From a virus (lineage: Duplodnaviria > Caudoviricetes): a DNA stretch of 42,685 nucleotides. Shown here in pieces: positions 3,632 to 42,685 of this stretch. The notes under the pieces were generated by a model. That model saw only the letters and a list, made by a program, of their open reading frames with translations. It was not told the origin of the DNA and did no database searches. The position numbers and the translations under genes are program-made. How positions within the stretch are numbered: position 1 is the first letter of the stretch; every line of letters starts with the position of its first letter. The stretch covers positions 1 through 42,685 of the IMG/VR virus record IMGVR_UViG_3300032305_002598. One strand, written 5' to 3'.

Positions 3632-4639
3632 ATGAGAGAAATTTTAAAAAAATATAAAGAGTTAGGTTTATTGAGAAGTCAAAGGCATCCTAAGTTTCCT
3701 CTAGAAATATGGAACTATACTGAAAAAGTCCAGTATGAGGATTTGTGGGATAATATAACTCTATCACATAGAGGGACTATTAGGGATTTAGATGGCAATT
3801 TGATAGCAAAGCCATTTTCTAAATTTTTTAATATAGAGCAAAACCGCCATAAAGAATCGAAAAGTTTTGAGATTTATGATAAAATGGACGGATCGCTTGG
3901 CATCTTATTTAATTACCAGAATCAATGGATATTAGCAACAAGAGGTAGCTTCACTAGTGAGCAGGCTATCAAAGGTTATGAAATATTGCAAAAATATAAT
4001 TATCAAAATCTTGATAAAAATTTAACTTATTGTTTTGAGATTATTTACCCAGAAAACAGGATAGTCTTGAATTACGGCAATAAAGAAAGCCTAGTATTGC
4101 TTGCAATTTTTGATTTACAAGGCAATGAATATTCAATTGACGACTTTTCATCAATATTTGAAATTGTTAAAAAATATGATTTTAAGGAATATAAAGAAAT
4201 TCAAAAACTAAACTGGGATAATTCAGAAGGTTTTATTGTTAGATTTTCAAATGGAGAAAGATGTAAGATTAAATTTGAAAATTATGTTGAGCTTCATAGA
4301 AAGTTAAGCTATATATCAGAAAAAGCGGTTTGGGAATTGATTTGCGAAAAGAAAGATATTAAAGAATATCTCGATATAGTTCCTGATGAATTTCATAAAC
4401 AAATAAAAGATTGGTATTGGAAAATTATGCTAGATTTTAGTAATACTGAAATCAGGGTAAAAAACAAATTTTATCAGTTGCCTAATTTTGAAACTAGAAA
4501 AGATTTTGCTCTTGCGATCAAAGATGATGAAGATAAAGCAATGTTATTTAAACATTTGGACAAGAAAGATATTTATGAAGATATTTGTAAGTTAATAAAA
4601 CCGAGTAATGTTAAATCTTTAATTTTTGATAAGGAGTAA
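3632..4639 (+). CDS. T4 Rnl1-like RNA ligase
   Basis: PFSKFFN; motif I KMDGSLG; ATRGSF; FEII; motif IV EGFIV; motif V RCKIK. Confidence 0.92.
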   Translation: MREILKKYKELGLLRSQRHPKFPLEIWNYTEKVQYEDLWDNITLSHRGTIRDLDGNLIAKPFSKFFNIEQNRHKESKSFEIYDKMDGSLGILFNYQNQWILATRGSFTSEQAIKGYEILQKYNYQNLDKNLTYCFEIIYPENRIVLNYGNKESLVLLAIFDLQGNEYSIDDFSSIFEIVKKYDFKEYKEIQKLNWDNSEGFIVRFSNGERCKIKFENYVELHRKLSYISEKAVWELICEKKDIKEYLDIVPDEFHKQIKDWYWKIMLDFSNTEIRVKNKFYQLPNFETRKDFALAIKDDEDKAMLFKHLDKKDIYEDICKLIKPSNVKSLIFDKE

Positions 4640-4641
4640 AT

Positions 4642-5550
4642 ATGGCTAAATTAATTATAATGATTGGTATTTCAGGAAGCGGAAAATCAACAAAAGCAAA
4701 AGAAATTTCAGAAAGAACGGGAGCTTTAATTATTAATAGAGACAAGTTAAGAGAAATGTTGTTTGGTTATACAGAAAGCAATATTCATAATTATTATAAT
4801 TTACCTGATTTGTATTTAAAAGAAAATCAAATAACTAGTTTTCAAAATTACCTTGTAGAAAGAGCTTTAGTTAAAGGAAATGATGTTATTATCGACAATA
4901 CTAATTTAAAACAAAGCTATATAAATGATTTTATCAAATCTTTTTGTAAATATAAAATTGAGTTTGAATTAATAGAATCTGATTTATCCGAAGCTATAAA
5001 AAGAGATAAATCACGAACTAGAAGCGTTGGAGAAGAAGTTATTAAAAAACAATTTAATAATTTAAATATATTAAAGAAAAATTTTAACTTTAAACCTATT
5101 TTACCAAAAGAAGATTCTATTTTTAATGACATATCTAAACCAAGTGCGTTTATTTTTGATATAGACGGCACTTTGGCTTTAAAGGGAGATAGAAGCCCTT
5201 ATGATTATGCAAGAGTCTTTGAGGATAAATTAAATACATCGGTTGCTAAATGCTTAGATTTTATCAAACTTTGCAATAGCTATGTTTTTATTTGCTCAGG
5301 AAGAGAGGGAACTCAGCAATGTAAAAGCGAAACTCAAAGATGGTTAGAGGCTAATGGAATCGAGTATGATTGGATTCTAATGCGTGAAGAGGGCGATAGG
5401 AGAGCTGATTATATTGTTAAAGAGGAGATGTGGAGAAAAATTTGCAAACAATATTATATCGAGGCTATGTTTGATGACCGAAATCAAGTTGTAAATCATG
5501 CGCGAAAATTAGGATTTAGTGTATTTCAAGTAAATGAAGGGGATTTTTAA
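4642..5550 (+). CDS. pseT: polynucleotide 5'-kinase / 3'-phosphatase (T4 PseT-like)
   Basis: P-loop GISGSGKST, NRDKLR, IIDNTN, RDKSR lid; HAD motifs DIDGT, SGR and FDDR. Confidence 0.93.
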   Translation: MAKLIIMIGISGSGKSTKAKEISERTGALIINRDKLREMLFGYTESNIHNYYNLPDLYLKENQITSFQNYLVERALVKGNDVIIDNTNLKQSYINDFIKSFCKYKIEFELIESDLSEAIKRDKSRTRSVGEEVIKKQFNNLNILKKNFNFKPILPKEDSIFNDISKPSAFIFDIDGTLALKGDRSPYDYARVFEDKLNTSVAKCLDFIKLCNSYVFICSGREGTQQCKSETQRWLEANGIEYDWILMREEGDRRADYIVKEEMWRKICKQYYIEAMFDDRNQVVNHARKLGFSVFQVNEGDF

Positions 5551-22694: not shown

Positions 22695-24173
22695 ATGGAA
22701 ATAAACGATAGAAAAATTAATAATATTATAGAAGAAAAGAAGAATAAAATTTATAAAGAAAACTTTTATGAATTTTTTTGTAATGTAGCTTTTCCAGCAA
22801 TATTTCCTAATAAGCAACTATTACCAAGCAAATCAACTAGAATATTGTGCAAAATAGCTGAGGCGACATCAAAAAAAAAGCTCGGCTTTAGAAAAGTAAT
22901 TGTTAATATTCCACCTGGATTAATGAAATCCACTATTGTTTCAGCAGGTTTATCAGCTTGGCATTTAGGAAGAAACCCCGCAGAAAGAATGTTTGGAGTA
23001 TCTAACAAAGATAAACTAGTGACTAGGAATGTTGGCTGGACAAAGTTAATTATGGAATCAAAAAAATATAGAGATATTTTTCCTGATTTATTAATAACAA
23101 AAGATACAGAAAATCATATTAAAACTTCCTTAGGTGGAGAAAGGCAAGGCTTTGGAACGTTAAGTAGGGTAACTGGTGAAAGATGCGACTTTTTATTGCC
23201 AGATGATTTTATTTCTTCGGACATGATATACAAAGCAGATGGCACAAGCGCATTAAAAGCTTGGGACGAAAGTTTCTATTCAAGGGTCGATAAAGTTAGT
23301 GGAAGTATTTTTATCATCGAACAAAGATTGGGCATAAACGATTTAACCGGATACTTAACTCGAACTAGACCAGGTGAATATCTAGTAATATCTTTACCAG
23401 CTTACTTTGAAGAGAGAACTGTTATAGTAGTTGATGATGAAGAGTTTGTGTTTGAGAAAGATGAATTATTATCACCAGATTATTTACCTTGGCATGAAAT
23501 TAATAGCTTAATGAATAGGGTTGTTGATCCAGAAACTGGTATAGCCAATGGAAAGCAAGTTTTCTTTGCTCAATATATGCAAAACCCAGTTGCTGATGGT
23601 GGCAATATGGTTGATATAAATTGGTTTCAACCATTTAGAATTAGCGATGTTTCTTCTATGAAATTTGATAGAGTTGTAGTATCGGTTGACTCAGCTCAAA
23701 AACCCAATGAAATCAATGATCCAAGTGCCTTTCTTAAATTTGGAATCATTGGTAAATCGAAATATTTAATTGATTGTTATTGCGAAAGAAAAGTTTATCC
23801 AGAAACAAAGGAGGGGTTAATAGCTTTTTGCAACGATGGACATAGAACAACTGATTTAATAATTGAAGATGCCAACACTGGCTCTAGTTTATTGCAGGAG
23901 CTTCCTAATGAGCATAAATTATATGGAATAACAATTATTCCTATTTCTCACGGTGGTATAAAAAAAGAAATAAGATTTTTAACCGCAACTGGTGCATTTT
24001 CAAATAGAAGTTTTTATTTTCCAAAAGATGCTACTTGGTATCCAAATTTTGAAAGCCAATTAATGCAATTTCCTAAGGGTCGCCATGATGATATGGTTGA
24101 TTGTTTAGGTCAATTTGCACATTGGCATATTGAGTTAGAAAGATTCTTCGATTATTGGTGTATCGAAGTTTAA
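22695..24173 (+). CDS. terL: terminase large subunit
   Basis: Walker A VNIPPGLMKST; GERCDFLLPDD; QRL; AQYMQNP; nuclease motifs SVDSA, IEDANTG, FPKGRHDDMVD. Confidence 0.93.
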   Translation: MEINDRKINNIIEEKKNKIYKENFYEFFCNVAFPAIFPNKQLLPSKSTRILCKIAEATSKKKLGFRKVIVNIPPGLMKSTIVSAGLSAWHLGRNPAERMFGVSNKDKLVTRNVGWTKLIMESKKYRDIFPDLLITKDTENHIKTSLGGERQGFGTLSRVTGERCDFLLPDDFISSDMIYKADGTSALKAWDESFYSRVDKVSGSIFIIEQRLGINDLTGYLTRTRPGEYLVISLPAYFEERTVIVVDDEEFVFEKDELLSPDYLPWHEINSLMNRVVDPETGIANGKQVFFAQYMQNPVADGGNMVDINWFQPFRISDVSSMKFDRVVVSVDSAQKPNEINDPSAFLKFGIIGKSKYLIDCYCERKVYPETKEGLIAFCNDGHRTTDLIIEDANTGSSLLQELPNEHKLYGITIIPISHGGIKKEIRFLTATGAFSNRSFYFPKDATWYPNFESQLMQFPKGRHDDMVDCLGQFAHWHIELERFFDYWCIEV

Positions 24174-30014: not shown

Positions 30015-30302
30015 ATGGATATAAAAAAAGAAAAAAAAGAAAAGAATACTAGTGAAGTTTATTTCTTTTTAAATAGAGTAAAAGCCTTCACTCCCTTGCT
30101 TTTTGAGTTAAATCTTTTAAAGAAAAATTGTAAAAAGGAATGCTTAAGCTATCTTGGAATGAAAAATGCTAAATCTAATTGGTATACTTTTGGAATAACT
30201 CCAAAATATAAAGTTATGCTACAATTAATTGAGAAATTAGAAGAAAGTAATAAAAATGCTAAAAGACTTCAAGAGCAGGTAAATAAATTTTTAAATAAAT
30301 AA
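30015..30302 (+). CDS. hypothetical protein, possibly Cro/XRE-like HTH
   Basis: KKECLSYLGMKNAKSNWYTFGITP loosely matches an XRE HTH. Confidence 0.45.
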   Translation: MDIKKEKKEKNTSEVYFFLNRVKAFTPLLFELNLLKKNCKKECLSYLGMKNAKSNWYTFGITPKYKVMLQLIEKLEESNKNAKRLQEQVNKFLNK

Positions 30303-30304
30303 AA

Positions 30305-31333
30305 ATGAATTATAATTGGTTATTAAAAGATACTATCTTTACCAAAGATAAGGGGAAGGTTTTTACATGTTTTTCTGGCGGAGGTGGAAGTTCTCTTGGT
30401 TATAAACTAGCGGGCTTTGATGTGATAGGTTGCAATGAAATAGATAAGAGAATGATGGATGTTTATATAGCTAATCATAATCCTAAATATAGTTTTTTAG
30501 AATCTATTTCGACATTAAAAGTTAGAGATGACTTACCTAAGGAATTATATGATTTAGATATTTTGGAAGGAAGTCCTCCCTGTTCAGCATTCTCAATGGC
30601 TGGTCAGAGAGAAAAGAATTGGGGTAAAGAAAAAAAATTTAGAGAAGGACAAGTGTCTCAAGTTTTAGACACTTTGTTTTTTGATTTTATTGATTTAGCT
30701 AAAAAATTACAGCCTAAAATTGTAATTGCTGAAAATGTTAAAGGACTATTACAGGGTTTAGCTAAAGAATATGTAAAAAAAATATACCAGGAATTTAATA
30801 ATGCTGGCTATAATTGCGATCATTATTTATTAAATGCCTCAAATATGGGAGTGCCACAAAAAAGAGAAAGAGTTTTTTTCATTGCCTATAGAAAAGATTT
30901 ACCTTTTAGCCATTTTCACTTAAATTTAGATTTTAATGAAAAGCCAATAACATTTGGAGAATTTTACCAAAAAGGAGTTAATGATAGAAAAGTTTCAACT
31001 GGTAAAATGTTTGAGTATTGGCAAAATAGACGAAATGGTGACGCTAATTTTGCTGATACAATTATGAGGGTTGAGGGTAAACATAGATGCTTTAATAATT
31101 ATTACCTTCATCAAAACAAAGTATGCAATACTTACACTAGTAATGATTATGTATTATTTTTATTTGATGAATATAGAAAGCCTAATAAATCAGAGAGTTG
31201 TTGTATAGGAAGTTTTCCTCAAGATTATAATTTTGTTAAAGAAAAGTATAATTATGTTATCGGAATGAGTGTGCCACCACTTATGACAGCTAAAATATCA
31301 AAAGAAATTTATGACAAATGGTTGAAATTTTAA
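30305..31333 (+). CDS. C5 cytosine DNA methyltransferase
   Basis: motif I FSGGGG, IV GSPPC, VI ENV, VIII QKRERVF, X IGMSV. Confidence 0.95.
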   Translation: MNYNWLLKDTIFTKDKGKVFTCFSGGGGSSLGYKLAGFDVIGCNEIDKRMMDVYIANHNPKYSFLESISTLKVRDDLPKELYDLDILEGSPPCSAFSMAGQREKNWGKEKKFREGQVSQVLDTLFFDFIDLAKKLQPKIVIAENVKGLLQGLAKEYVKKIYQEFNNAGYNCDHYLLNASNMGVPQKRERVFFIAYRKDLPFSHFHLNLDFNEKPITFGEFYQKGVNDRKVSTGKMFEYWQNRRNGDANFADTIMRVEGKHRCFNNYYLHQNKVCNTYTSNDYVLFLFDEYRKPNKSESCCIGSFPQDYNFVKEKYNYVIGMSVPPLMTAKISKEIYDKWLKF

Positions 31334-33033
31334 TCACCTCTTTCTCTTTTTATTTCTTCCCACTTTCTATTAGCCCAAGACTTACCAGGATTGCCACCCC
31401 ATAATTGCCAAGCTATTCGACCAGCACTTGGAAAACCTTCTTCACCTTGATTAAATCCTTCTGCTTGTTTATCAACTTCATGTCGCGCAAAATAAGAAAC
31501 CATTCTGCCAATTGTTCTTGGTGTTAGATTTTCACGGTTCTTTAATTGATTAGCTCTTGCAACTCCGACAGCTGTCCCACCTCTTCCAAATTCTTCTCTC
31601 CATTTTAAGCCTTGTTGAGCTTGATTTGCCATTTCTGCGGTTGGTTTTAAATCAATATCGCTAATAGCTTTAAAAGATTTATTAATTTGAGACAATGGAA
31701 TCCCAATAGCGTCGCTAGTATTGGTATCTTCCCCAATAGGAGCTTGGTTTCCATCAACATAGACAGCATTTAAGCCTTCAATATTATTTAAGCCAATTTG
31801 TCTTCTTAGCTCATTTTTAGTAGCAATATTTGCATTAGAAATCAAATTAGCTAACTCAGCATTCCTCATGGCAATTGCAGGGATTTCTGATTCAATGTAT
31901 TTTATTTCAGTGATTTTTGTATTTGGATAAAAATCTTTAATGAAAAAAAGGTAAATAAATTCGTAATAAGATTCTAATGTTGGTAAAATAGCAGAATCAT
32001 ATAAATTTAAGTTAGCTTCCTTCATATTCGAGTTAGAGGTAAACTCGCCTTCCACAAGTGGCAATGGAATGTTAAAAGCATTATAAAAAGCTACTCTTAG
32101 CCTTCTTAAGCCAATATTAAACTCTAAATCCTTTGCCATGAAAGGGTTTTGAAGGTCAACTGGGTTAATATCGAGGGTTGTAATAAGGGTTTTGCCATTA
32201 TTTACAGAGCCAGTGAACTTACTTTCTAAATCTTTTTTCCATTGATCAACTAATTGCTGGTTAGTTCCAGCCGGAACTTTAGTCAAATCTATTTTAAACA
32301 TTTTTTTAGCAGCTAGAGAGTTTTTAAAACTAGCTCGATTACTCGTGTTGCCTTCTTGGTATAAAATCATTTCATCTCTTAGTGGTGCTAATTTACTAGT
32401 TCCCCAACCAGATGTTATAACCATATTATTTGTAAGAACTTTTGCCTCTTCTTCGCTATAGTGTAGTAATTCTCTAGTTACACCATCTTTTATAAATTTG
32501 TATCTAATAGGATTTTCATAAGAACTATCTAAATTTTTATTATATGTTATAATCACACCATTCTCATCAGCATATTCGTAATAATTAATTACCTCATTGG
32601 TCTTATTTATAGCAATTTTAGCTGGATTAATGTTTGTAATAGCTGAAATATCATTTTTATTTTTATATTTTATTTCAATAAAATTATTTCCAGTAGCTAG
32701 AAAATGTAGCAATGCTTCTTTACGAAATTGTATTCCAGTTTGTTTGGGATTGGGTTTTCTAGCCCATTTGTCAAATGCCATTACATCTGGTGGAGTTTTT
32801 TTAGCATCATTTACATATGGAATACTTCCTTGAAAAGCATAGGGCTTGATTGTTGATCCAAAAGTATTAATTTTGTTTATAGCGTCAGCGAGTGGAGCTA
32901 CAGTATAATAGAAATTTAAGAAAGTAGAGGCATCGTAAAGAATGGTAAAAGACATGTTCGGGTTAGAACTAAAATCTCCAATCATGTAGTTGGAGTTTCT
33001 TCTAAAAAAATTAGTTAAACCGAAAAGTGCCAT
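31330..33033 (-). CDS. HK97-family portal with an extra C-terminal domain
   Basis: KPNPKQT, ATGNNF, GTSKL, FTGSVNNGK, AFNIP, TKNELR; ~108-aa appended domain. Confidence 0.92.
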   Translation of the reverse strand: MALFGLTNFFRRNSNYMIGDFSSNPNMSFTILYDASTFLNFYYTVAPLADAINKINTFGSTIKPYAFQGSIPYVNDAKKTPPDVMAFDKWARKPNPKQTGIQFRKEALLHFLATGNNFIEIKYKNKNDISAITNINPAKIAINKTNEVINYYEYADENGVIITYNKNLDSSYENPIRYKFIKDGVTRELLHYSEEEAKVLTNNMVITSGWGTSKLAPLRDEMILYQEGNTSNRASFKNSLAAKKMFKIDLTKVPAGTNQQLVDQWKKDLESKFTGSVNNGKTLITTLDINPVDLQNPFMAKDLEFNIGLRRLRVAFYNAFNIPLPLVEGEFTSNSNMKEANLNLYDSAILPTLESYYEFIYLFFIKDFYPNTKITEIKYIESEIPAIAMRNAELANLISNANIATKNELRRQIGLNNIEGLNAVYVDGNQAPIGEDTNTSDAIGIPLSQINKSFKAISDIDLKPTAEMANQAQQGLKWREEFGRGGTAVGVARANQLKNRENLTPRTIGRMVSYFARHEVDKQAEGFNQGEEGFPSAGRIAWQLWGGNPGKSWANRKWEEIKRERGD

Positions 33034-33374: not shown

Positions 33375-33779
33375 TTATATTGTTATACCTTTAGCTTTAT
33401 TCCGAGCCATAATATCCACACTCTCATTAAAGAAGTTATCGCTATGAGCTTTCACCCACTTAAATTCTAAATCAACGAGATGAAGTATGTCTCTAATCTT
33501 AGTAATTAAGTCTTCATTTGTAGTAAATTGTTTTTTACAAGATAAAACAGTTATAACATATTGAGAATCGGTAAATATGGTGATTTTTTTACCGTTTAGC
33601 TTTAATTCGATTATTTTCTCAATAGCTTTTAAACATGCGGTTAATTCCATGCGATTATTTGTAGCATTCTTAGGAACTCTTCCCGAATTAGAAATAATGT
33701 TTTCCTCATCATTGATTATTATATAAGCCCAACCACCTTTTTGACCGATACATGAGCCGTCAGTATAAATATTTATCAT
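33375..33779 (-). CDS. rnhA: ribonuclease HI
   Basis: IYTDGS, GGWA, TNNRMEL, FTDSQY, NEDL, WVKAH, NESVD. Confidence 0.95.
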   Translation of the reverse strand: MINIYTDGSCIGQKGGWAYIIINDEENIISNSGRVPKNATNNRMELTACLKAIEKIIELKLNGKKITIFTDSQYVITVLSCKKQFTTNEDLITKIRDILHLVDLEFKWVKAHSDNFFNESVDIMARNKAKGITI

Positions 33780-33782
33780 AGG

Positions 33783-34505
33783 TTATACATTTAGTTCTTT
33801 GTTAATTAAATCATCAAGTCTATTTCTAGCTTTGTTTATTAATGTTTCAAGTATTCTTTTATCCTCTATTTCATCAATAAAAGCTTCAATTACCATTTTA
33901 ATCTCTTGAGGACTATTGCTACTGCCATTATTGATCTGAGTATTGTTGTTGATAACTGTTTTAGCATTTTCCCCGTATCTCTCAGGGTTTTTCATCTTAG
34001 CTACGGTAGATAAAGCCTTTGTAATCGAATTTAACCCAACTGCGTCTATATGGGGGGCAGAGTTACCTTGTATAAAGTCTTTTGTTATGCTATCGAGGTC
34101 ATCAACTAAGAAAACCGCACCTTCACTAGAAGCTTTAACATATTCGTAATGGAAAAAGGTATCCGAGGTTATAATTTCCTTAATTTGAGAATATGAAGGC
34201 ATATCTTTAATCTTAGAAATGTTTTCGATTGTTAAACCATTCCTTGTGTGGTCTATGATTTTGCTTTTAACATCTAGGGTGATTTCATAGAGCTTATCTA
34301 ACTGGTCATCTTCTTTTAAATCTAATGAGCCATATAATTCCTTGAATCTTCTTTGGAGATATTCTTTAGCCGCCATTCTCGATAACTCATTTTGATATTT
34401 CACACTCATGGAGGTTTCTACTATCATTCCAGTAATGGGAGCTATATCTCTTCCCCGAGTATAATGTTTTTCCTTATCGATAATGTTTTTTTTGTCATTT
34501 TCCAT
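33783..34505 (-). CDS. terminase small subunit (Sf6-like)
   Basis: MPSYSQIKEII...FHYEYVKA...VAKMKNPERYG matches the MPSxxT...FxxxYxxA...KLxPxxYG pattern. Confidence 0.7.
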   Translation of the reverse strand: MENDKKNIIDKEKHYTRGRDIAPITGMIVETSMSVKYQNELSRMAAKEYLQRRFKELYGSLDLKEDDQLDKLYEITLDVKSKIIDHTRNGLTIENISKIKDMPSYSQIKEIITSDTFFHYEYVKASSEGAVFLVDDLDSITKDFIQGNSAPHIDAVGLNSITKALSTVAKMKNPERYGENAKTVINNNTQINNGSSNSPQEIKMVIEAFIDEIEDKRILETLINKARNRLDDLINKELNV

Positions 34506-34515
34506 GCTCTAGGAG

Positions 34516-34537
34516 GTTAGGTTAGTATTTGCTAATA
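34516..34537. repeat. 22-bp operator-like site, second copy
   Basis: GTTAGGTTAGTATTTGCTAATA; 20/22 identical to 1706-1727. Confidence 0.75.
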
Positions 34538-34544
34538 GGCAATT

Positions 34545-34573
34545 AAAGTAATAGAATCAACTATGTAAGTCAA
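34545..34573 (-). promoter_or_regulatory. putative promoter for terS-rnhA
   Basis: TTGACT-N17-TACTTT. Confidence 0.6.
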
Positions 34574-34659
34574 GAGAAAATTTAACTTACTACTCTAACT
34601 TAGGTTTTGAAGGGTGAATAAGCCATGACACTTACAGTATCAATAAGAAAAAAAAATAA

Positions 34660-35260
34660 AAAAACCCCTTGACAAAATAATTTACTTGACAATGATTATT
34701 GCAGGGGATTCTCTTTTTTAAAAATGGCAAGCCATTAATATACACTGTATATGGGTTGCAATTTTTTGTAAAAAGGTTGTTTCCAGATTTGGCAGAATTC
34801 CCAATAACTGACAAATTGAAATTAGCATTCAGCAGGGGGTGTTATTCTCACAGAAAGGAGTTTACTCCAGATGCTTACATCTTGCATGTAAGTAGCTGGA
34901 ACTAAGCATCTCAATTAGGTTAATTTACTACAATACTCCCAAGCCTCTTATAGGAATAAACCATATTTTGAAATTGTAAAATTAAAAATTGACTATTTTT
35001 TTTTCTTTATGGTGAATTTAAACTATACATAAACCACCCCCATACCTAGACCTTAACTACATACATAATTAACTATAATACTAATATCATAGCTTAAAAG
35101 TGGCTATAAATTAGTTTATTTGATGGTTTATGGGGAAGATAAGTTTATTTTGATGAAAGTGTATTTTAGTAGGAGAAGATGGGAGGGGGGACTATTACTC
35201 CCATGCACCCCTCCCCCCTTTCTATTCTTGCCAATACCCCCACCCCACCAAGTCCAACCA
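34660..35260. other. hairpin-rich non-coding region with G-to-C strand switch; candidate genome terminus/packaging site
   Basis: inverted repeats at ~34665-34707, 34866-34900, 35028-35131 and 35179-35218; upstream of TerS. Confidence 0.45.
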
Positions 35261-35774
35261 CAACAACCAATAAAACAAATTCAACACTAATCTTTTTTTA
35301 TAACTCAACAATTTATTTCATCAACTAACTTTTATTTATTTCAAAACTAAAATTAATAATCCTAATAATCTTACTTTAATTTACTCACCAATAATTATTA
35401 TTTATTTTATAATATAATTTATTAAATCTTATTAATATTTATTGAACTTCACCAACAGTTAAACCAACTCAAAGCCATTAATCAAATTGAAACAACTAAA
35501 ACATTTTCAACAATTAATTAAAATAAACATTGACACAAAGTTTAATCAACCAACTTGTTAAGATTTATTAACTTATTTATTTATTATTATATTCTAATTT
35601 GATACTTCAATTGACACTTTGAGCAAGCAATTAATAATTTTAATTCATCAATTTAAAATAATTTATTTATTTTGTTTCAATTCCTTCAATCAAAACCCCT
35701 TCAAGCTTACAGTCTCAACACTTCACAAACATTGTTTCATTTTGTGAACACTTGAAAATAATTAAAAATAGTTA

Positions 35775-35803
35775 TTGACATATTGAAATAAAGAATCTAT
35801 AAT
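35775..35803 (+). promoter_or_regulatory. consensus sigma70 early promoter
   Basis: TTGACA-N17-TATAAT with an A/T-rich UP region. Confidence 0.9.
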
Positions 35804-35848
35804 TATCTCAACAAATTAACTTATTAAAAACTTAAAAAAAAATACTTT

Positions 35849-36094
35849 ATGAAAAATTATTTAAATCAACAAAAACAAAAACAAAACAAAAAAGAAAAAA
35901 TTGAAAATATTGAATTAATTTGCTGGATTTTAGCAGCAATCTTTTTTGCAACATCTTTTTTAAATATTAATTTAATTTTTACAAAAGAATTTATTGAACT
36001 TTTTTCTTTAAAAATATTTATTTCAACTTCAATTTTGACTTTAGTTTTTTCAACAACTGCAGCAATTTTTTACAATAAATCTTTAAGAAATTAA
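35849..36094 (+). CDS. early two-TM membrane protein
   Basis: first ORF after the promoter; two hydrophobic helices. Confidence 0.65.
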   Translation: MKNYLNQQKQKQNKKEKIENIELICWILAAIFFATSFLNINLIFTKEFIELFSLKIFISTSILTLVFSTTAAIFYNKSLRN

Positions 36095-36100
36095 ACAACT

Positions 36101-36220
36101 ATGCAAAAACTTTTAAACAAAATTAAAAAACTTTTAAAAATCAAAAGTAAAAAACAATATATCAAAATCAATAACTTTTTAGAAATTGATAAAGATTTTC
36201 AAAAACTATTAAAACTTTAA
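36101..36220 (+). CDS. 39-aa basic peptide (not in ORF track)
   Basis: MQKLLNKIKKLLKIKSKKQYIKINNFLEIDKDFQKLLKL; fills the gap. Confidence 0.5.
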   Translation: MQKLLNKIKKLLKIKSKKQYIKINNFLEIDKDFQKLLKL

Positions 36221-36232
36221 CTCTTAAATTAT

Positions 36233-36343
36233 ATGCAAATTGACTTCATTCACAATTACAAAATTAAAGATTGTAGAACTTTCTTGAATTTATCAAGAAA
36301 TAATATTATCACAAAAATAATATTTTTTATTAAACATTATTAA
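36233..36343 (+). CDS. 36-aa peptide (not in ORF track)
   Basis: MQIDFIHNYKIKDCRTFLNLSRNNIITKIIFFIKHY; fills the gap. Confidence 0.4.
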   Translation: MQIDFIHNYKIKDCRTFLNLSRNNIITKIIFFIKHY

Positions 36344-36353
36344 TTTTTATTTT

Positions 36354-36656
36354 ATGTCAATATCCAACAAAGAAATTTTAAACAAAAAAAATATAACAAT
36401 AAGCTTAAGAAAATTTGAAGTTTTAAATCAAGATTTTCAAAAAAATTTACAGGCAAGAATTGATTTTGGAGCCTCTTTAAATAGAAACTTTAAAGAAAAG
36501 GGTATTAATTCACAAGATTACTATTGCAGACTTGATAATTTTAAAGAATTTTTACAAATTCAATTAATTTTAAAAGCTTTAAAAAAAGGGTTTAAACTTC
36601 AAAAAATAGAAGTTGGTAATTTTGCAAATTCTTATTTTTTCAGTAAAGAAAATTAA
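36354..36656 (+). CDS. early hypothetical protein
   Basis: 100-aa ORF. Confidence 0.65.
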   Translation: MSISNKEILNKKNITISLRKFEVLNQDFQKNLQARIDFGASLNRNFKEKGINSQDYYCRLDNFKEFLQIQLILKALKKGFKLQKIEVGNFANSYFFSKEN

Positions 36657-36758
36657 TTAATAACCAAAATCACCACAAAAAACCCATCTTAATAATCTTT
36701 ATGATATAATAATAAATTTATTATATTTTATTAGTTATTAACTTAAATATTTATTTTT

Positions 36759-37211
36759 ATGAATGATAAAGAAAAAATTTTAAATAAAAAAACACAAGAT
36801 TTAATGCTTGATTTTTGCCCCTTTGGTTTTGGTGATATGCAAGCAGTTGTTGAAACAATTGAATCAGTAGGAAAATCAATAAATGATGCTTATAATATGA
36901 TTATAAATAGAGCTAATGAAATAAATGATGGTAAGCTTGATAATATAGACCCAGTTGCCTGTGTTTATGATGCTTTAAGATGTGAAGCAACTAAAGAACT
37001 TCAAAAAGAAATTAATTTAAAATATTTTGATTTTGATTCAATTGAAGTTTATGGTAATTATTTATGCACTAGTTTACAAATTGAAAATGAAACAAAACAA
37101 GAATTAATTGAAATTTTAAAAGATAATAATATTAATTTTGAAAATTCTAGTGCTTTAATAAGCTGGTTTTTTGACTCTTTAGACATTAACGAAAATGATT
37201 TAACAAAATAA
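36759..37211 (+). CDS. acidic early protein, candidate DNA mimic
   Basis: about 29 D/E against 14 K/R in 150 aa (hand count). Confidence 0.55.
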   Translation: MNDKEKILNKKTQDLMLDFCPFGFGDMQAVVETIESVGKSINDAYNMIINRANEINDGKLDNIDPVACVYDALRCEATKELQKEINLKYFDFDSIEVYGNYLCTSLQIENETKQELIEILKDNNINFENSSALISWFFDSLDINENDLTK

Positions 37212-37220
37212 TTTAAACAT

Positions 37221-37538
37221 ATGAATAAAGAAAATACTATTTTGATAATTTCACAAGAAATTTTTCAACGTGAAATTGAAAGCGCCGAAAAAATATTTGA
37301 AAATAAAAGTTTGTTAAAAAATAACTTAAAATACCACAACGAAGCAATAAACAAAGCTTTAAAATCAATTTTTGATTTAGCAAGTGAAGTTTTACAAAAT
37401 GTTATTGATGATAATTTAAAATCTTATTTTGAAGTGCCTAAATTTTTAAAAATGAATTTGGAAAATTTCAACGAAACATTTAATCACAATTTGCAAATTT
37501 TAAATGCTTCAAAAAAACTATTAAAATTTATTAATTAA
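37221..37538 (+). CDS. early hypothetical helical protein
   Basis: 105-aa ORF. Confidence 0.65.
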   Translation: MNKENTILIISQEIFQREIESAEKIFENKSLLKNNLKYHNEAINKALKSIFDLASEVLQNVIDDNLKSYFEVPKFLKMNLENFNETFNHNLQILNASKKLLKFIN

Positions 37539-37558
37539 CAACTCAAATTTAAATTCAT

Positions 37559-37969
37559 ATGCAATCAATCCAAGTTAAATATTTACCAGCAACCAACACG
37601 CAACCAGCACGCTTAAAAGCAACCTGTGAAGGTGGAAGCATTACCGAACCCCGCGACCACTTAGAAACAAGCGAACAGGGGTTAAACCTAGCTTTCAAGC
37701 TATCTAACCAATTAAACTGGAATGTTAAAGAATTTTCGCGAGGTAGCTTTAAAAATTGCGATTACTTCAATATTGTTAAAATAGCGCCGTTAAAATCTCT
37801 TTTTTTTCAAGACTACTTTAATAAAGAATTTGACAAATTTAAAGACGCTACATCTTTAAAAATTAAATTTACGGGTTATCAAGAAATTACCCCGGTTAAT
37901 TCTAATTTTATTTCAATCAGCAAGGAGCAACTCGAGCAAATAAAACAAATTCTTATCAACTCAAATTAA
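37559..37969 (+). CDS. early hypothetical protein
   Basis: N-terminus IQVKYLPATNTQPARLKA resembles a recurring uncharacterised phage motif (TKYLxPTNxxGxRIKA). Confidence 0.7.
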   Translation: MQSIQVKYLPATNTQPARLKATCEGGSITEPRDHLETSEQGLNLAFKLSNQLNWNVKEFSRGSFKNCDYFNIVKIAPLKSLFFQDYFNKEFDKFKDATSLKIKFTGYQEITPVNSNFISISKEQLEQIKQILINSN

Positions 37970-37976
37970 ATAATTT

Positions 37977-38360
37977 ATGAAACAATTTTATTTCAATGTC
38001 AACGCCACTATTTATAAAGATGATTATAAAGAGGGGCAAGGCGACCAAGTAAACTCTTGGCAAAATCAAGAATTAATTAAAGCCGAAAATCTAACGCTAG
38101 CAATCGAAAAATTATTTGAAACAAAACTTTATTTTACTTATAAAAAAGAATTTGCACAAGTAAACGATTGCAATGATTCAATTAATAATATTCTAGAATA
38201 TTGTAATATGGTCGATAACGATAATTGCGAAGTTTTGGAAAGCGACAAAAAATATCAAGATTGGAAAGCTGGTAAAATAGAACTCTATTCTTGCGATTTA
38301 TCAATTGAAATTTTTGAATTAAACGCCGTCGATTTAACCGAAAATTATTTTAAACTTTAA
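37977..38360 (+). CDS. early acidic hypothetical protein
   Basis: 127-aa ORF. Confidence 0.65.
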   Translation: MKQFYFNVNATIYKDDYKEGQGDQVNSWQNQELIKAENLTLAIEKLFETKLYFTYKKEFAQVNDCNDSINNILEYCNMVDNDNCEVLESDKKYQDWKAGKIELYSCDLSIEIFELNAVDLTENYFKL

Positions 38361-38371
38361 TTAAAAAAAAC

Positions 38372-38995
38372 ATGAATACTCTTGAAAAAAATCTATTAAA
38401 CGCGGTCAAATTTATAAATTTAAAAAAGCTTAGCAATGCGGGGTTTATTGTCGAAAAAAACCAAGCCATTTTTTACTCCGGCAAAATTATTTTTAAATTT
38501 AGGGTTGAAAATATTCAACATACTACGCGCCATTTTTTGGTTGATATGGTGAAGCCGGGTGAAATTTACGAGTCAATTAACGATAAAAACACTCAACCAA
38601 TTTTAAAAGCAATCAATAATTATTTTAATGTTAGTTTTGAAAATCAACTTAATTTGCCAAGGGGTGAATTTTTTGACTTTTTAGACGCAATTTTTATAAG
38701 CGATAATGAATTGACAAAATACCATAACCAAACAAGCGTTAAAATTGAAAGCGATATTTTAAAAATCGAAAATAAATTTAAACAAGATTCAAGCGAAAAT
38801 TTTAAAGAGCTAAGTTTTGAATATGAAATAAACAATCAACAAAATTTTGATTTTAAAATATATACTCCTTTTAAATTTTTTCTCAAATTCATAAAATCGA
38901 AAAAACAAGATTTTAATTTTTTTGGAAAAAAACATGGTCAAGACAGTTTATTTTTAGCAAAAAATAACGACTTTGAAATTTTAACAATTTGTTAA
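38372..38995 (+). CDS. hypothetical protein, possibly sliding-clamp-like fold
   Basis: C-terminal half has a beta-clamp domain-III-like strand/helix pattern (by eye). Confidence 0.4.
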   Translation: MNTLEKNLLNAVKFINLKKLSNAGFIVEKNQAIFYSGKIIFKFRVENIQHTTRHFLVDMVKPGEIYESINDKNTQPILKAINNYFNVSFENQLNLPRGEFFDFLDAIFISDNELTKYHNQTSVKIESDILKIENKFKQDSSENFKELSFEYEINNQQNFDFKIYTPFKFFLKFIKSKKQDFNFFGKKHGQDSLFLAKNNDFEILTIC

Positions 38996-39001
38996 ACAAC
39001 A

Positions 39002-39256
39002 ATTAAAAATATCAAGCCCGAGCAAGATATTTTTAAAACAATAACAAAATGGCAAAATAAAATTTATACTTTAAAAAATCTAAATTATCAATTATTAGAA
39101 ATTAAAGAATTATCAAAAAAAGAAATTTCAAAGGATTTTGAAACTAAGGTTGATGATTTAAAATTTTATCGATTAAAAACTTGCGAGGTCGGCAACTCTC
39201 AATTTTATTTAACTTTGATTTTACAAAATAATTTAATTCATCAAATAATTTATTAA
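39002..39256 (+). other. ATG-less open frame (ATT start or pseudogene)
   Basis: 86 sense codons from 38996 to TAA at 39256, no ATG, followed by a terminator. Confidence 0.45.
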
Positions 39257-39277
39257 AATTACTAATTTTCAACCCCT

Positions 39278-39310
39278 AACCCGTCAAAATCATATTTGCC
39301 GGGTTTTTTT
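39278..39310 (+). terminator. intrinsic terminator of the first early operon
   Basis: AACCCG-TCAAA...TTTGC-CGGG followed by T7. Confidence 0.8.
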
Positions 39311-39853
39311 CTATTCTATTTATTCAACTTCTTAATAAACCCCCTTTTTAAGCTTTCTTATTACTTTTAATTACCTCAATTAGTATTTGCCTATATTTAT
39401 TTTTTCAACCCCTTTCTTGCTCCTTAAAATTATCCATTATTTTCTATTAAAAGCATTATTTTTTAATAAATACTAATTTTCTATCTTGCCACCCCTTTTT
39501 TATAAAAATCAATAAATGATTATTATTAATAAATCTATTATAACATAATTATTTTATTAACCCTTAAAAAACCACTTAGGGAGGGGCAATTTTTTATTTT
39601 CTCGAAAAAATACAATATAGAAATAATTATCATTATTTTAATCTTTTTGCTTGACAGTCTTTTTTACTATTATTTTTAATTAAATTATAATAAACATTTA
39701 TTTTATAATTTATTTAATTCACAAAGTTTTTAATTTTAATCAATAATCTTTTTTTAATATTTTTTTATTTCTTTTACATAATCGAATAAACAACCCTAGG
39801 GACTCTAGGCTTGTCTCAATTTGAATAACCTTTAAAATAATTATAATTGCCTA

Positions 39854-39881
39854 TTGACATATAAAAAAACATAATCATAAT
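39854..39881 (+). promoter_or_regulatory. second early sigma70 promoter
   Basis: TTGACA-N16-CATAAT; upstream AAAATAATTA...TATTGACATAT is shared with the 35775 promoter. Confidence 0.75.
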
Positions 39882-39937
39882 GTGTTTTATTAAATGAAAT
39901 AAATTTATTTCAAATATTAACTTAAATAAAAAAAAAT

Positions 39938-40939
39938 ATGAAAAACTTGAAACAATTTATAAAAAATCATAATCGTATTTTAAACCTACTAGCAATTTTT
40001 AAAGATAGTGAGGGACGAATTGAAATTGCTAAAAGATTTACAAAGCTTAATGATTTCGCATTTAATTCAAATAAAGAAAGCATTGAAATAAAATTAAATG
40101 ATATTGATTATTGCAATATAGATGATGCAATTTTAAACCTCGAAATAATTAATAAAGATACAATTGAGCAAATAAAAGAAAATGTTAATGAAGAAGATAG
40201 TTGCCAACACGCGAACGATAATCTTTTTGAAGATTTTGGTTGTTTCGATGATAGTTTTTATAAAAAATTTTATTATAAAAAGTTTGATTATTCCAAAGAA
40301 AAAGAAGTGCTTGAAAAAAATTTTGAGTTTACTGATTGGGGATATGGTCAAAGTGGCATAACCTCAGAGAATTTTGAACTTGATAATAAATTTTGGCAAC
40401 AAGATTTTTGCACATATTATTTAGACGAATTAACCCCGATTAACAATTATCAAGACTTAATTAGGAATGTTAGAATTTATAATAAATTTGATAATGATAT
40501 AATTGGCGGGCAACGGGGGTTTTTAAGCGATAGTTATCATTATATTAAAAACTTTGTTTACGATTTAAGGGCAATGCTTAGTGTTGTTAAAATTCATAAT
40601 GAGTCAGCAGAAACAATCGCACAGGAGCAATTAGAATGTGATATTGAAGATTTTATAGAAAATGAAAATCTTTTAAAAGATGGCGATATTGAAAAAGTAA
40701 AGTTTGATTATATCGCTAAAATTGAGGGTGAGGAAATTATAACAAATAAAGGAGCTAAAGCACCCCTTGATGATTGTAAGAAAGCCTTAGAAGTGTTTAA
40801 AAGTGGCGGAAGTTTGGAAGGTTTAAAACTTGGGGTTTATACAATTAATAAAATTTTCAACATCAAAGAAAATGTCTTTTTTCGAGCCGGGTGCCACTTG
40901 GTAAGAATTGACGATAATTTAATTAATCAATTAGCTTAA
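39938..40939 (+). CDS. early hypothetical protein: acidic middle, conserved-looking C-terminal AGCH domain
   Basis: ITNKGAKAP...GLKLGVYTINKI...RAGCHLV. Confidence 0.7.
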   Translation: MKNLKQFIKNHNRILNLLAIFKDSEGRIEIAKRFTKLNDFAFNSNKESIEIKLNDIDYCNIDDAILNLEIINKDTIEQIKENVNEEDSCQHANDNLFEDFGCFDDSFYKKFYYKKFDYSKEKEVLEKNFEFTDWGYGQSGITSENFELDNKFWQQDFCTYYLDELTPINNYQDLIRNVRIYNKFDNDIIGGQRGFLSDSYHYIKNFVYDLRAMLSVVKIHNESAETIAQEQLECDIEDFIENENLLKDGDIEKVKFDYIAKIEGEEIITNKGAKAPLDDCKKALEVFKSGGSLEGLKLGVYTINKIFNIKENVFFRAGCHLVRIDDNLINQLA

Positions 40940-40942
40940 TTT

Positions 40943-41233
40943 ATGAAAAAATTTCAATATTTTAATGTCGCAAGTAATAGCAAAATAACGGGAGTAAAGA
41001 CGCAATTGGTCAAAGCACTTGAAGTTATTGAAGTTGCCGGCAATCAATGTTTTTTCTATAAACAAGATTATTTTGCCCTAGTCCACTTGAAAACTGGATT
41101 AATAATTTATCCATCGTTTCAAAACTCTTTTAAAAAAGCAAGAAACGAGATAATGGAGCGAGTAAACGATAATATCGAGTCAATCGAGAAAGGCTTTATT
41201 AATAAGGCCGGAGATTTTGAAATTATTAATTAA
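40943..41233 (+). CDS. early hypothetical protein
   Basis: 96-aa ORF; LVHLKTGL. Confidence 0.65.
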   Translation: MKKFQYFNVASNSKITGVKTQLVKALEVIEVAGNQCFFYKQDYFALVHLKTGLIIYPSFQNSFKKARNEIMERVNDNIESIEKGFINKAGDFEIIN

Positions 41234-41256
41234 CAATTTAATTTAAAACAAAAAAT

Positions 41257-41499
41257 ATGGCACAATTCAAAATAAAATGGTCTTTCATTAACTCTAAACA
41301 AGCAATAAAAGCAATTGATTTATTGGGAGCAAAAAGTCTTGATAAAATCACATATTACAAAAAAAACAAAAAAATTGACGAGGAAAATTATTCTTGGACG
41401 GATTCTTTTTCGGCAGATAAAAAAGCTAAAAAAGATATTAGAAAATTCTTTAAAGAAAATTCTGGAATGAATGATTTTATAGAATTTATTAAAAATTAA
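41257..41499 (+). CDS. early hypothetical basic protein
   Basis: 80-aa ORF with the shared leader motif. Confidence 0.6.
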   Translation: MAQFKIKWSFINSKQAIKAIDLLGAKSLDKITYYKKNKKIDEENYSWTDSFSADKKAKKDIRKFFKENSGMNDFIEFIKN

Positions 41500-41515
41500 C
41501 AATTAATTTAAACAT

Positions 41516-41758
41516 ATGGAACAAGCACATAATCCACAAAGACTTTATTTATATAAAGCCATCGACGAAAATAACGAAGTATTAGCGGAAACATTATTTT
41601 TCAATTTAGATGACGCAATCGAGCAACTCAAGATTGACGAGAAAGATTTTGATTTAGGCTATACGCCACTTTTTCAAGCTAAAAGTAAATTTATAATTTC
41701 ATTACCTACACCTAAGCAATTAAGGCGCTTAACTAAAAAAGGGGTAAAGATTTATTAA
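41516..41758 (+). CDS. early hypothetical protein
   Basis: 80-aa ORF with the shared leader motif. Confidence 0.6.
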   Translation: MEQAHNPQRLYLYKAIDENNEVLAETLFFNLDDAIEQLKIDEKDFDLGYTPLFQAKSKFIISLPTPKQLRRLTKKGVKIY

Positions 41759-41759
41759 A

Positions 41760-42131
41760 ATGGAGGAGCAATTTTATTTTAGAATTGAAATTTTTGTCAA
41801 TAGACTAAAAGTTTTAGAATCTTGGTTGATAAACAACCATGAAAGCAAGATAAATTTAGAAGCTAATGATTTTTTCTTTGAATATGCTAAAAACAACGAT
41901 TTTAAGCATAAAGTATTAAAAGATTGTATCATTGAGGCAATTAACAATAAAACCATTAAAATTGGCGATGTTATCAATGATAATAGCAATTTTAATAATG
42001 ATATTATTTCAAAAACAAACAATCCCGTTATTAATTGGGGAGAAAATGTTTTTGCTAGGGGCAATATCAAGTATAATCTTAATGGCCGGGAGATTTATTA
42101 TAAAATTTTTAAACAACCAATTTTACATTAA
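41760..42131 (+). CDS. hypothetical protein
   Basis: 123-aa ORF abutting its neighbours. Confidence 0.6.
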   Translation: MEEQFYFRIEIFVNRLKVLESWLINNHESKINLEANDFFFEYAKNNDFKHKVLKDCIIEAINNKTIKIGDVINDNSNFNNDIISKTNNPVINWGENVFARGNIKYNLNGREIYYKIFKQPILH

Positions 42132-42132
42132 A

Positions 42133-42270
42133 ATGGAAAAAGAAGTTAAAAAAAAGAAAGGCGATAATTGGAAGCTATTCTTTGGAATAATAGGAATAAT
42201 TTTGCTTTTACTCGCTTGCAATTACCTAATATTGCCGTTATTAGCAATATTATTTCTTCAAAAAAAATAA
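42133..42270 (+). CDS. 45-aa single-TM protein
   Basis: MEKEVKKKKGDNWKLFFGIIGIILLLL...; ATG right after the upstream stop. Confidence 0.55.
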   Translation: MEKEVKKKKGDNWKLFFGIIGIILLLLACNYLILPLLAILFLQKK

Positions 42271-42278
42271 ATAAATAT

Positions 42279-42563
42279 ATGAAAAATCAAATTTTAAACG
42301 ACTACATAGACAACAATAAGAGTATTCAAAAAGCGGCAAAGCTTAACAACATTACTAGCTACAAAGCTAGGAAAGTTTTAGTTAGTGCCGGAATTGATTT
42401 TAGTAAAAAAAGAAGAGGTCCAGAGCCAAAATTTGATTTAGAACAATTTAAATTGCTTTTAGAGACTAAGTCAATTGTTGAAATTGCTAAAGAGCTAAAA
42501 GTAAAGTATAACTCAGCTTGGTGCTACGCTAAAAGACATAAACTAATTACTAATAATAATTAA
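42279..42563 (+). CDS. tandem HTH DNA-binding protein
   Basis: SIQKAAKLNNITSYKARKVL and SIVEIAKELKVKYNSAWCY linked by RRGPEPKF; ATG 42279 preferred. Confidence 0.65.
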   Translation: MKNQILNDYIDNNKSIQKAAKLNNITSYKARKVLVSAGIDFSKKRRGPEPKFDLEQFKLLLETKSIVEIAKELKVKYNSAWCYAKRHKLITNNN

Positions 42564-42586
42564 ATATTAACTCAAATCCTTAAAAT

Positions 42587-42685
42587 ATGAAAAAATTAAA
42601 AAAATCAAAACGCGAGCGACTTAATGAAATTCGTTTCAAACTTTGCTTTCGTTGCTCATCAAAATTTAAATTTACTGAAGCAAGA
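42587..42685 (+). CDS. partial ORF with CxxC, runs off the window
   Basis: MKKLKKSKRERLNEIRFKLCFRC... Confidence 0.45.
   Translation, partial: MKKLKKSKRERLNEIRFKLCFRCSSKFKFTEAR

What the first reader, a model, noticed from the sequence alone, without database searches (positions are those of the whole stretch)
34480..37189. 2.7 kb with no CG dinucleotide at the putative entry end, then an abrupt switch to CG-rich DNA
Seen: no CG between the CG at 34478-34479 and the CG at 37190-37191, although GC, CC and GG are common. The next 2.1 kb (37190-39310), similarly AT-rich and in the same operon, has roughly 60 CGs by hand count. The zone spans the candidate terminus, the consensus promoter and the first five ORFs, and ends 20 nt before the stop of the acidic 150-aa gene. 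Known: T5 pre-early DNA is depleted of restriction sites, and T7 expresses Ocr from first-entering DNA. Inference: a staged-entry stealth leader against a CG-directed (or methyl-CG-directed) host defence, which becomes unnecessary once the inhibitor encoded at its end is made. This is the best candidate for an undescribed system here.
Basis: partly seen in the sequence, partly recalled or inferred. Interest (0 to 1): 0.85.

Follow-up and report, generated by a model that had tools for sequence, protein, structure and literature searches.

The report
Position-fixed CG-free zone in lake phages
A group of uncultured freshwater phages keeps a 2.3-2.7 kb stretch beside its packaging gene free of the two-letter word CG even when the genes inside are swapped, which likely marks DNA that enters the cell first and must dodge a still unidentified CG-recognising host defence.

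Summary
Confirmed: 34480-37189 holds no CG (about 36 expected; next-longest gap 432 nt). The window is part of an uncultured freshwater myovirus. The zone straddles a conserved G-run/C-run junction between terS and the first early promoter.

A distant relative (L033, terS 49% identical) has a 2,343-nt CG-free gap at the same place. It ends 1.92 kb from the junction (2.0 kb here), yet its genes are mostly different and it has no homologue of the 150-aa protein. Three more relatives are CG-poor upstream of terS. So the zone is set by position, not by a donor cassette, and the 150-aa gene is not required. All flanking contexts are missing, and CG is not hypermutable in the family. That argues against palindrome avoidance and methyl-C decay.

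Best reading (0.5): end-proximal, first-entering DNA under selection by an unknown CG-recognising host defence. Not shown: the genome end, the entry order, the host, the enzyme and the inhibitor. T5's first-step DNA is CG-rich, not CG-poor. This scan earlier noted CG-poor early or control regions in three unrelated phages (unchecked), one of them T4-like, which would favour timing over entry order.

The parts
34480..37189 (.). CG-free zone: 714 nt on the terS side and 1,997 nt on the early side of the junction
33783..34505 (-). Terminase small subunit (Sf6-like); the zone reaches 26 nt into its 5' end; first gene of the leftward late block
   Evidence: phrog_1482 E 2.8e-8; PF20901 E 3.2e-6
35170..35260 (.). 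Conserved G-run/C-run junction with local G/C strand inversion; candidate packaging or terminus site (inferred)
   Evidence: conserved in L001, L010, L022 and L033; G30/C4 then G3/C41 in adjacent 100-nt bins; no unusual fold
35775..35803 (+). Consensus sigma-70-type promoter (12 of 12); a second 11-of-12 match at 35611-35638
   Evidence: pattern match only
35849..36094 (+). 81-aa ORF with two hydrophobic segments (predicted membrane protein); the zone gene best conserved in L033 (85% over 55-62 aa)
   Evidence: no PHROG or Pfam family above cut-off
36101..36220 (+). 39-aa basic ORF, no homologue found in L033
36233..36343 (+). 36-aa basic ORF with a 35-aa homologue in L033's zone (62% over 21 aa, E 1e-4)
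36354..36656 (+). 100-aa basic ORF, no family, no homologue in L033
36702..36748 (+). 47-nt AT-rich element identical in L033, directly upstream of the swappable last-gene slot
36759..37211 (+). 150-aa acidic protein (pI 4.2) of a large unnamed family; fills the last slot here, replaced by an unrelated 109-aa gene in L033
37190..39310 (.). CG-enriched (O/E 1.7), CAG/CTG-poor (8 vs 18) early genes right after the zone
30305..31333 (+). C5 cytosine DNA methyltransferase of unknown specificity, between portal and protease; bears on the methyl-CG rival
   Evidence: PF00145 E 1.5e-49

Best explanation
A 2.3-2.7 kb segment around a conserved junction between terS and the first early promoter is free of CG in this phage group whatever genes fill it, likely because it is the genome-end DNA that enters the cell first and meets a host nuclease or sensor that recognises CG itself. 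Shown: the absence; its fixed position (about 1.9-2.1 kb on the early side, 0.4-0.7 kb on the terS side); its independence of gene content and flanking bases; no CG hypermutability in the family. Inferred: (1) selection rather than mutation keeps CG out; (2) a genome end or terminal redundancy lies at or near the junction, so both flanks are among the first DNA delivered; (3) entry pauses or is slow for about 2 kb while host RNA polymerase expresses the leader; (4) a leader product then removes the threat, the best candidates being the conserved 81-aa membrane protein and 36-aa peptide, or whichever gene fills the swappable last slot; (5) the DNA that follows can carry CG freely.
For: Zone significance. 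L033 has 0 CG in 2,341 nt against 25.8 expected, and NNC|G 0 of 31 in zone genes vs 51 of 182 after; 1 of 2,000 conservative simulations reached that length. Its zone shares only 2 of 5 ORFs with the window, and its early-side edge lies 1,918 nt from the junction against 1,997 nt. DNA upstream of terS has 1, 0 and 2 CGs against 18.5, 18.5 and 16.7 expected in L001, L010, L022, although this DNA barely aligns with the window. These make three lineages: window; L001/L010 at 93-95% identity; L022/L033. Non-palindromic NCGN contexts: 18.2 expected, 0 seen. GATC occurs twice in L033's zone, so the rule is CG only. Non-coding DNA at 39263-39937 keeps 4 CGs against 5.5 expected. Strain relatives: 0 CG gains among 54 listed zone changes (2.9 expected), and the boundary CG is absent in 3 of 3 runs covering it. 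The layout, with late genes running away from a non-coding junction and small host-promoter genes on the other side, matches the place of genome ends in T5, T1 and lambda (recalled). Site-free first-entering DNA is established for T5-like phages and murciaviruses (PMC10644984, PMC12455610).
Against: No terminus was demonstrated: all contigs read through the junction, and only assembled contigs, no raw reads, were available. The best terL matches (26-28% identity) include T1-like coliphages and a Rickettsiales chromosome; these are recalled as headful-type. PMC12455610 argues that early-region avoidance should not apply to headful phages. Both sides of the junction are CG-free, which a simple cos end would not explain. 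No natural restriction enzyme for bare CG turned up in the listings, and I recall none. T5's first-step DNA is CG-enriched (O/E 1.34 vs 0.79). G002, a myovirus sharing modules with this one, has no such zone in 34.7 kb (72% complete). The SNP test alone is weak (P about 0.06; only 40 of about 395 and 40 of 62 rows were shown). The host is unknown. The CG enrichment right after the zone is unexplained and weaker in L033 (13 vs 15.3 in the next 1.9 kb, then 90 vs 60.4).
Confidence: 0.5

Rival explanations
1. Timing or control-region effect, not entry order: CG must be absent from the divergent control region and the first-transcribed genes because a CG-binding or CG-methylating host factor would silence them, or block packaging or origin proteins, until an early product acts.
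For: The zone is centred on divergent promoters and a conserved junction. Unchecked scan notes report CG-free divergent control regions in a prophage and CG-free early arrays in a T4-like phage, a group recalled as circularly permuted.
Against: The second strong promoter (39854-39881) and its genes have ordinary CG. The absence covers synonymous sites up to 1.4 kb downstream of the promoter and ends at a similar distance despite different genes.
Confidence: 0.18
2. Methyl-CG version: the phage's late C5 methyltransferase (or a host one) methylates CG in virion DNA, and the leader lacks CG so that it carries no m5C for Mrr/McrA-type enzymes until an inhibitor is made.
For: A C5 methyltransferase sits between portal and protease in the window, L001, L010, L022 and L033. 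Mrr and McrA act on m5CG (reference titles in PMC12707154). Carriers of this methyltransferase type have lower late-gene CG (0.50-0.55) than G001/G004 (0.71-0.73).
Against: No CG hypermutability at synonymous sites: G001 vs G004 saturation 0.24 before G vs 0.20-0.22 elsewhere; L019 vs L022 0.05 vs 0.08-0.15 on small counts. L001/L010 carry a different enzyme (21% identity) yet keep the pattern. 2 of 2 Flavobacterium phages with a 55-61% orthologue have no CG-free zone (O/E 1.07 and 1.56). ACGT is nearly absent genome-wide, which CG methylation should make unnecessary (inference).
Confidence: 0.14
3. Self-sparing: a leader gene encodes or recruits a CG-directed activity that destroys host DNA (T5 A1-like scorched earth), so the only phage DNA in the cell at that time must lack CG.
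For: T5 degrades host DNA from its first-step region, and how it spares itself is unresolved (10.64898/2026.04.02.716235). T5's first-step DNA has its own sharp dinucleotide signature. This needs no unknown host enzyme.
Against: No zone ORF matches a nuclease family. The only genes shared by both full zones are a hydrophobic 81-aa protein and a 36-aa peptide.
Confidence: 0.1
4. Local mutational decay of CG to TG/CA, a CG-poor donor cassette, or an assembly artefact.
For: The TG plus CA excess in the zone (41) about equals the missing CG (37). Gene swaps occur inside the zone in strains.
Against: One contig spans it and runs X2-X4 cover parts of it. The zone crosses terS, non-coding DNA and unrelated genes in two lineages. 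There is no CG hypermutability. A distant homologue of the 150-aa gene sits in ordinary-CG DNA (7 CG in 500 nt). Transitions are also the easiest escape under selection.
Confidence: 0.08

Closest known systems
T5/BF23 first-step-transfer (pre-early, terminal repeat) region
   Same: A bounded segment beside the terS end of the late block with host-promoter small genes; restriction works only if sites lie in it (PMC10644984, passages); a sharp compositional step at its edge.
   Different: About 10 kb against about 2.5 kb; T5 avoids sites of particular enzymes, and its first-step DNA is CG-rich (485 vs 361 expected in 9.1 kb). Two-step injection and terminal repeats are shown for T5 and not here. 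No zone ORF matched any PHROG family.
T7 leader with Ocr; Murciavirus early-injected region
   Same: Motif avoidance confined to the first-injected DNA, with a variable early gene cassette (PMC12455610, abstract and Discussion). The 150-aa protein is acidic like DNA mimics, and a distant homologue lies 5 kb from an ArdA-like gene (E 1.5e-5, below cut-off).
   Different: Those avoid long bipartite type I motifs, not a dinucleotide in all contexts. They are podoviruses with transcription-driven entry. The 150-aa protein shows no sequence or fold match to Ocr or ArdA and is dispensable for the zone.
CG-specific methyltransferases M.SssI/M.MpeI and m5CG-directed Mrr/McrA
   Same: The only bacterial activities I found that read CG as such (search listing; reference titles).
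   Different: They methylate CG or need methylated CG. Mollicutes lack a wall, whereas this phage has a contractile tail and a DUF5675 putative lysin. Methylation of CG is not supported here.
Leading regions of conjugative plasmids
   Same: First-entering DNA with distinct composition and anti-defence genes (10.1101/2025.04.03.647016, passages).
   Different: That study found no general depletion of restriction targets, and the word 'dinucleotide' does not occur in its main text.

Membership tests
T5-type first-step-transfer leader | Defined genome end with a direct terminal repeat holding the leader | not testable with these tools
   Only contigs were available; all read through the junction.
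T5-type first-step-transfer leader | Two-step injection with a stop signal | not testable with these tools
   Needs an isolated phage and host.
T5-type first-step-transfer leader | A1/A2/dmp homologues in the leader | tested here: not met
   No PHROG family for the 81-, 100- and 150-aa ORFs; no Pfam family above cut-off for all five; all are at most 150 aa while A1 spans 1,671 nt.
T5-type first-step-transfer leader | Motif avoidance confined to a bounded, position-fixed segment with host promoters | tested here: met
Type II restriction-site (palindrome) avoidance | Only palindromic 4-6-mers missing | tested here: not met
   18.2 non-palindromic NCGN expected, 0 seen. Ordinary avoidance of GATC, GTAC, GGCC and ACGT exists separately, window-wide.
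Methyl-CpG decay | Raised C-T turnover at CG relative to other contexts | tested here: not met
   Codon-controlled comparison of late genes in relatives; the zone itself could not be tested this way.
Ocr/ArdA DNA mimics (150-aa protein) | Strongly acidic small protein from early DNA | tested here: met
   29 D/E vs 14 K/R, pI 4.2; 148 of 150 family members net negative, median -0.13 per residue.
Ocr/ArdA DNA mimics (150-aa protein) | Ocr or ArdA sequence or fold | tested here: inconclusive
   Model pLDDT 90; best Foldseek E 0.19 (PDB) and 0.12 (viral); best VIA Z 6.2, rmsd 2.2, 56 aligned, for the N-terminal three-helix bundle only.
Ocr/ArdA DNA mimics (150-aa protein) | Inhibits a DNA-binding defence enzyme | not testable with these tools
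   Needs an assay.

The most novel reading that the evidence does not exclude
Freshwater bacteria carry an undescribed immune system that recognises the bare dinucleotide CG in incoming DNA, a bacterial counterpart of CpG sensing. These phages answer with a length-defined, CG-free first-entry leader holding a swappable anti-defence slot, and the 150-aa acidic family (371 clusters) would be one new inhibitor class.
Probability: 0.3. Interest if true: 0.92.

Novelty: new variant of a known kind. Interest (0 to 1): 0.74.

Why it matters
Site-free first-entering DNA is known, but for 4-13-bp motifs of named enzymes. A total ban on a dinucleotide in all contexts, fixed by position and surviving gene replacement, implies an activity with two-base specificity that I could not find described for unmodified DNA. 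The zone predicts the target (CG), the size of the exposed DNA (about 2 kb past the junction) and a short list of candidate inhibitors, so it can be tested directly. Compositional steps could also be used to map entry stages in uncultured phages; T5 shows such a step at its known first-step boundary.

Tried and rejected
Finding relatives. Scans of viral contigs with terS, the 150-aa alignments and the 136-aa ORF found none. The junction pattern gave 4 loci: L033 and L034 (the L022 record) are relatives; L031 and L032 had no protein match and were dropped as chance.

Host. Genome scans gave nothing or two terminases at 26-28% identity; an SSB search of plasmids was uninformative. TTGACA-type promoters argue against Bacteroidota (recalled), despite the Flavobacterium-phage methyltransferase hits.

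Terminus. L001, L010 and L022 end 720-900 nt upstream of terS, but at different offsets in AT-rich DNA, and L033 reads through, so these ends are not evidence of a terminus. Contig depth is higher right of the junction than left in X2, X3 and X4 (7.4 vs 4.5, 15.1 vs 6.7, 12.3 vs 3.9), but this is one figure per contig in strain mixtures, so I did not use it. No long repeats bound the zone, and the junction does not fold better than shuffles.

Function of zone proteins. No family or fold for the 150-aa protein and no match of two family members in named phages or plasmids. Of 25 longer or top family members scanned, one carries a GNAT domain and one a below-cut-off hit. The 100-aa Atlas hits were under 0.9.

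Motif tests. GATC as part of the rule was rejected. The uncorrected CG turnover excess (0.167 vs 0.06-0.09) vanished under codon control. My first non-coding control (38996-39937) included a probable gene remnant and was redone.

Literature. PMC8594841 passages had nothing relevant. The 'CpG' hits in PMC12455610 are a phage name. No supplements were read.
Full report
Observation. The window has 592 CGs, and none lies between 34478 and 37190. The gap is 2,712 nt and the next longest is 432 nt. About 36 were expected. No simulation out of 2,000 at the conservative late-gene rate reached this length, and it is the strongest absence among all 2-5-letter words. The following 2.1 kb holds 60 CGs (O/E 1.71). 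In coding DNA the effect is at synonymous positions: C before a G-starting codon occurs in 1 of 44 cases in the zone, 36 of 77 just after it, and 194 of 1,242 in late genes.

Setting. The window is a fragment of an AT-rich myovirus. TerS, RNase H, portal, a C5 methyltransferase, protease, terL, sheath, tape measure and baseplate genes run from 34505 towards 7.7 kb, and small unknown genes run rightwards from a consensus promoter at 35775. G000 is the window alone; a 53-kb contig carries the same 150-aa protein. Runs holding the stretch are mostly freshwater or plankton metagenomes from 10 studies; only X1 holds more than half of the words and it may be the source. Between terS and the promoter lies a G-run/C-run junction near 35190, where local G/C asymmetry flips. 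It is conserved in relatives whose surrounding DNA hardly aligns. The host could not be identified.

Relatives. Portal, motif and capsid scans gave L001, L010 and L022 (terS 58, 59 and 49% identical), which end 720-900 nt upstream of terS. That DNA has 1, 0 and 2 CGs against 18.5, 18.5 and 16.7 expected. A scan with the junction pattern gave L033, which spans the whole region: 0 CG in 2,341 nt against 25.8 expected, and by far the longest gap in its 36-kb record (next 644). Its zone runs 424 nt on the terS side and 1,918 nt on the early side, against 714 and 1,997 here. Only the 81-aa and 36-aa ORFs have homologues in it. Behind an identical 47-nt element it carries an unrelated basic 109-aa gene in place of the 150-aa gene. 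These records form three lineages. In strain-level relatives, 0 of 54 listed changes in the zone create a CG (2.9 expected; only the best-supported rows were shown), and the CG at 37190 is absent in X3, X6 and X13, which moves the edge to about 37269. In those strains and in L033 the first CG falls about 45 nt into the gene after the slot, so 'fixed distance' and 'end of the slot gene' cannot yet be told apart. G002, a different myovirus that shares modules with this one, has no zone in 34.7 kb.

What is avoided. CG is missing in every context, including 18.2 expected non-palindromic ones, so avoidance of palindromic type II sites does not explain it. Such avoidance exists separately for GATC, GTAC, GGCC and ACGT. 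GATC is allowed in L033's zone. Non-coding DNA outside the zone keeps CG (4 vs 5.5). The missing CGs are balanced by extra TG and CA, as both decay and selection would give. CG is not hypermutable at synonymous sites in the family, relatives with a different methyltransferase keep the pattern, and 2 of 2 Flavobacterium phages with an orthologous enzyme lack it. I infer position-specific purifying selection.

The proteins. The 150-aa protein is acidic (pI 4.2) and belongs to an unnamed family of 371 clusters at E up to 0.001, with 148 of 150 examined members net negative. Its confident model (pLDDT 90) has no convincing fold match. One distant homologue lies in a cluster with an ArdA-like gene and ankyrin genes, in DNA of ordinary CG content. 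It is a fair DNA-mimic candidate, but the zone does not depend on it. The 81-aa ORF has two hydrophobic segments and is the best conserved zone gene.

Mechanism. The best-supported reading (0.5) is a first-entering leader cleared of the target of a CG-recognising host defence until a leader product acts. The precedent is solid for longer motifs: T5-like phages are restricted only when sites lie in the first-step region (PMC10644984; passages read), and murciaviruses only when the motif lies in early-injected DNA (PMC12455610; abstract, passages and Discussion read). Several points count against it. No end was shown. The terL resembles enzymes I recall as headful-type, for which the latter paper expects no such avoidance. 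Both flanks of the junction are cleared, which requires terminal redundancy. T5's own first-step DNA is CG-rich, with a sharp step at 10 kb. Rivals are a timing or control-region effect (0.18), methyl-CG with type IV enzymes (0.14), self-sparing from a phage-encoded CG-directed activity (0.10; T5's self-protection is unresolved according to two passages of 10.64898/2026.04.02.716235), and decay, donor or artefact (0.08).

Novelty. Seven full-text searches (listings and abstract starts only, except the papers named) showed no report of a CG-free phage leader or of a restriction activity for unmodified CG. The library lacks most subscription papers, and no supplements were read. PMC12707154 (passages) cites only methyl-CG-directed Mrr and McrA, and 10.1101/2025.04.03.647016 (passages) found no general target depletion in plasmid leading regions. 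This scan's earlier notes describe CG-poor terminal, early or control regions in three unrelated phages. I could not check them; they suggest recurrence and, for the T4-like case, favour timing over entry order. I file this as a new variant of motif-free leading DNA. There is about a 0.3 chance that it reveals an undescribed CG-sensing bacterial defence.

Noticed in passing
window 37190-42685; L033 1-5870: Early genes after the zone are CG-rich (O/E 1.1-1.7) and CAG/CTG-poor (8 vs 18 and 12 vs 35; L033 6 vs 10.5 and 23 vs 36.8), while late genes have CG O/E about 0.55: a second compositional tier. The dinucleotide profile of 37190-39310 (AG low, CG and GC high) resembles T5's first-step DNA.
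   Followed up: partly
L030 (T5) 1-30000: T5's terminal repeat is CG-enriched (1.34) and AG/GA-poor with an abrupt step at about 10 kb; I did not find this described in the passages read.
   Followed up: partly
window 33594-34005 and 37191-37286: Outside the zone, 7 listed strain differences remove a CG present in the window and none adds one, as if the window's lineage is gaining CG.
   Followed up: partly
window 22695-24173: terL lies on the opposite strand inside the late block, 9.6 kb from terS; the arrangement is kept in L001, L019, L022.
   Followed up: no
window 30015-31333; L001 4701-6311; L022 6962-8499: Variable methyltransferase slot between portal and protease: two different C5 enzymes, plus a short adenine-type enzyme in some relatives.
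   Followed up: partly
window 31330-31657: The portal carries a C-terminal ~110-aa extension (phrog_2859) that is shared at 72-83% with unrelated phages.
   Followed up: no
window 38990-39260: Homologue of L033's 98-aa ORF (67%) without an ATG start in the window: a probable gene remnant or non-standard start.
   Followed up: partly
window 33934-42685: No GATC in the last 8.7 kb, though 29 occur elsewhere; not conserved in L033.
   Followed up: yes
L008 1-9897: Cluster of five ankyrin-repeat genes, an ArdA-like gene, a peptidase M28 gene and a homologue of the 150-aa protein.
   Followed up: partly
L033 late region; L022: ACGC/GCGT is almost absent (O/E 0.00-0.05) in these two relatives but not in the window or G001/G004: lineage-specific site avoidance.
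   Followed up: no
window 3632-5550: RNA ligase and polynucleotide kinase pair, a possible RNA-repair counter-defence.
   Followed up: no
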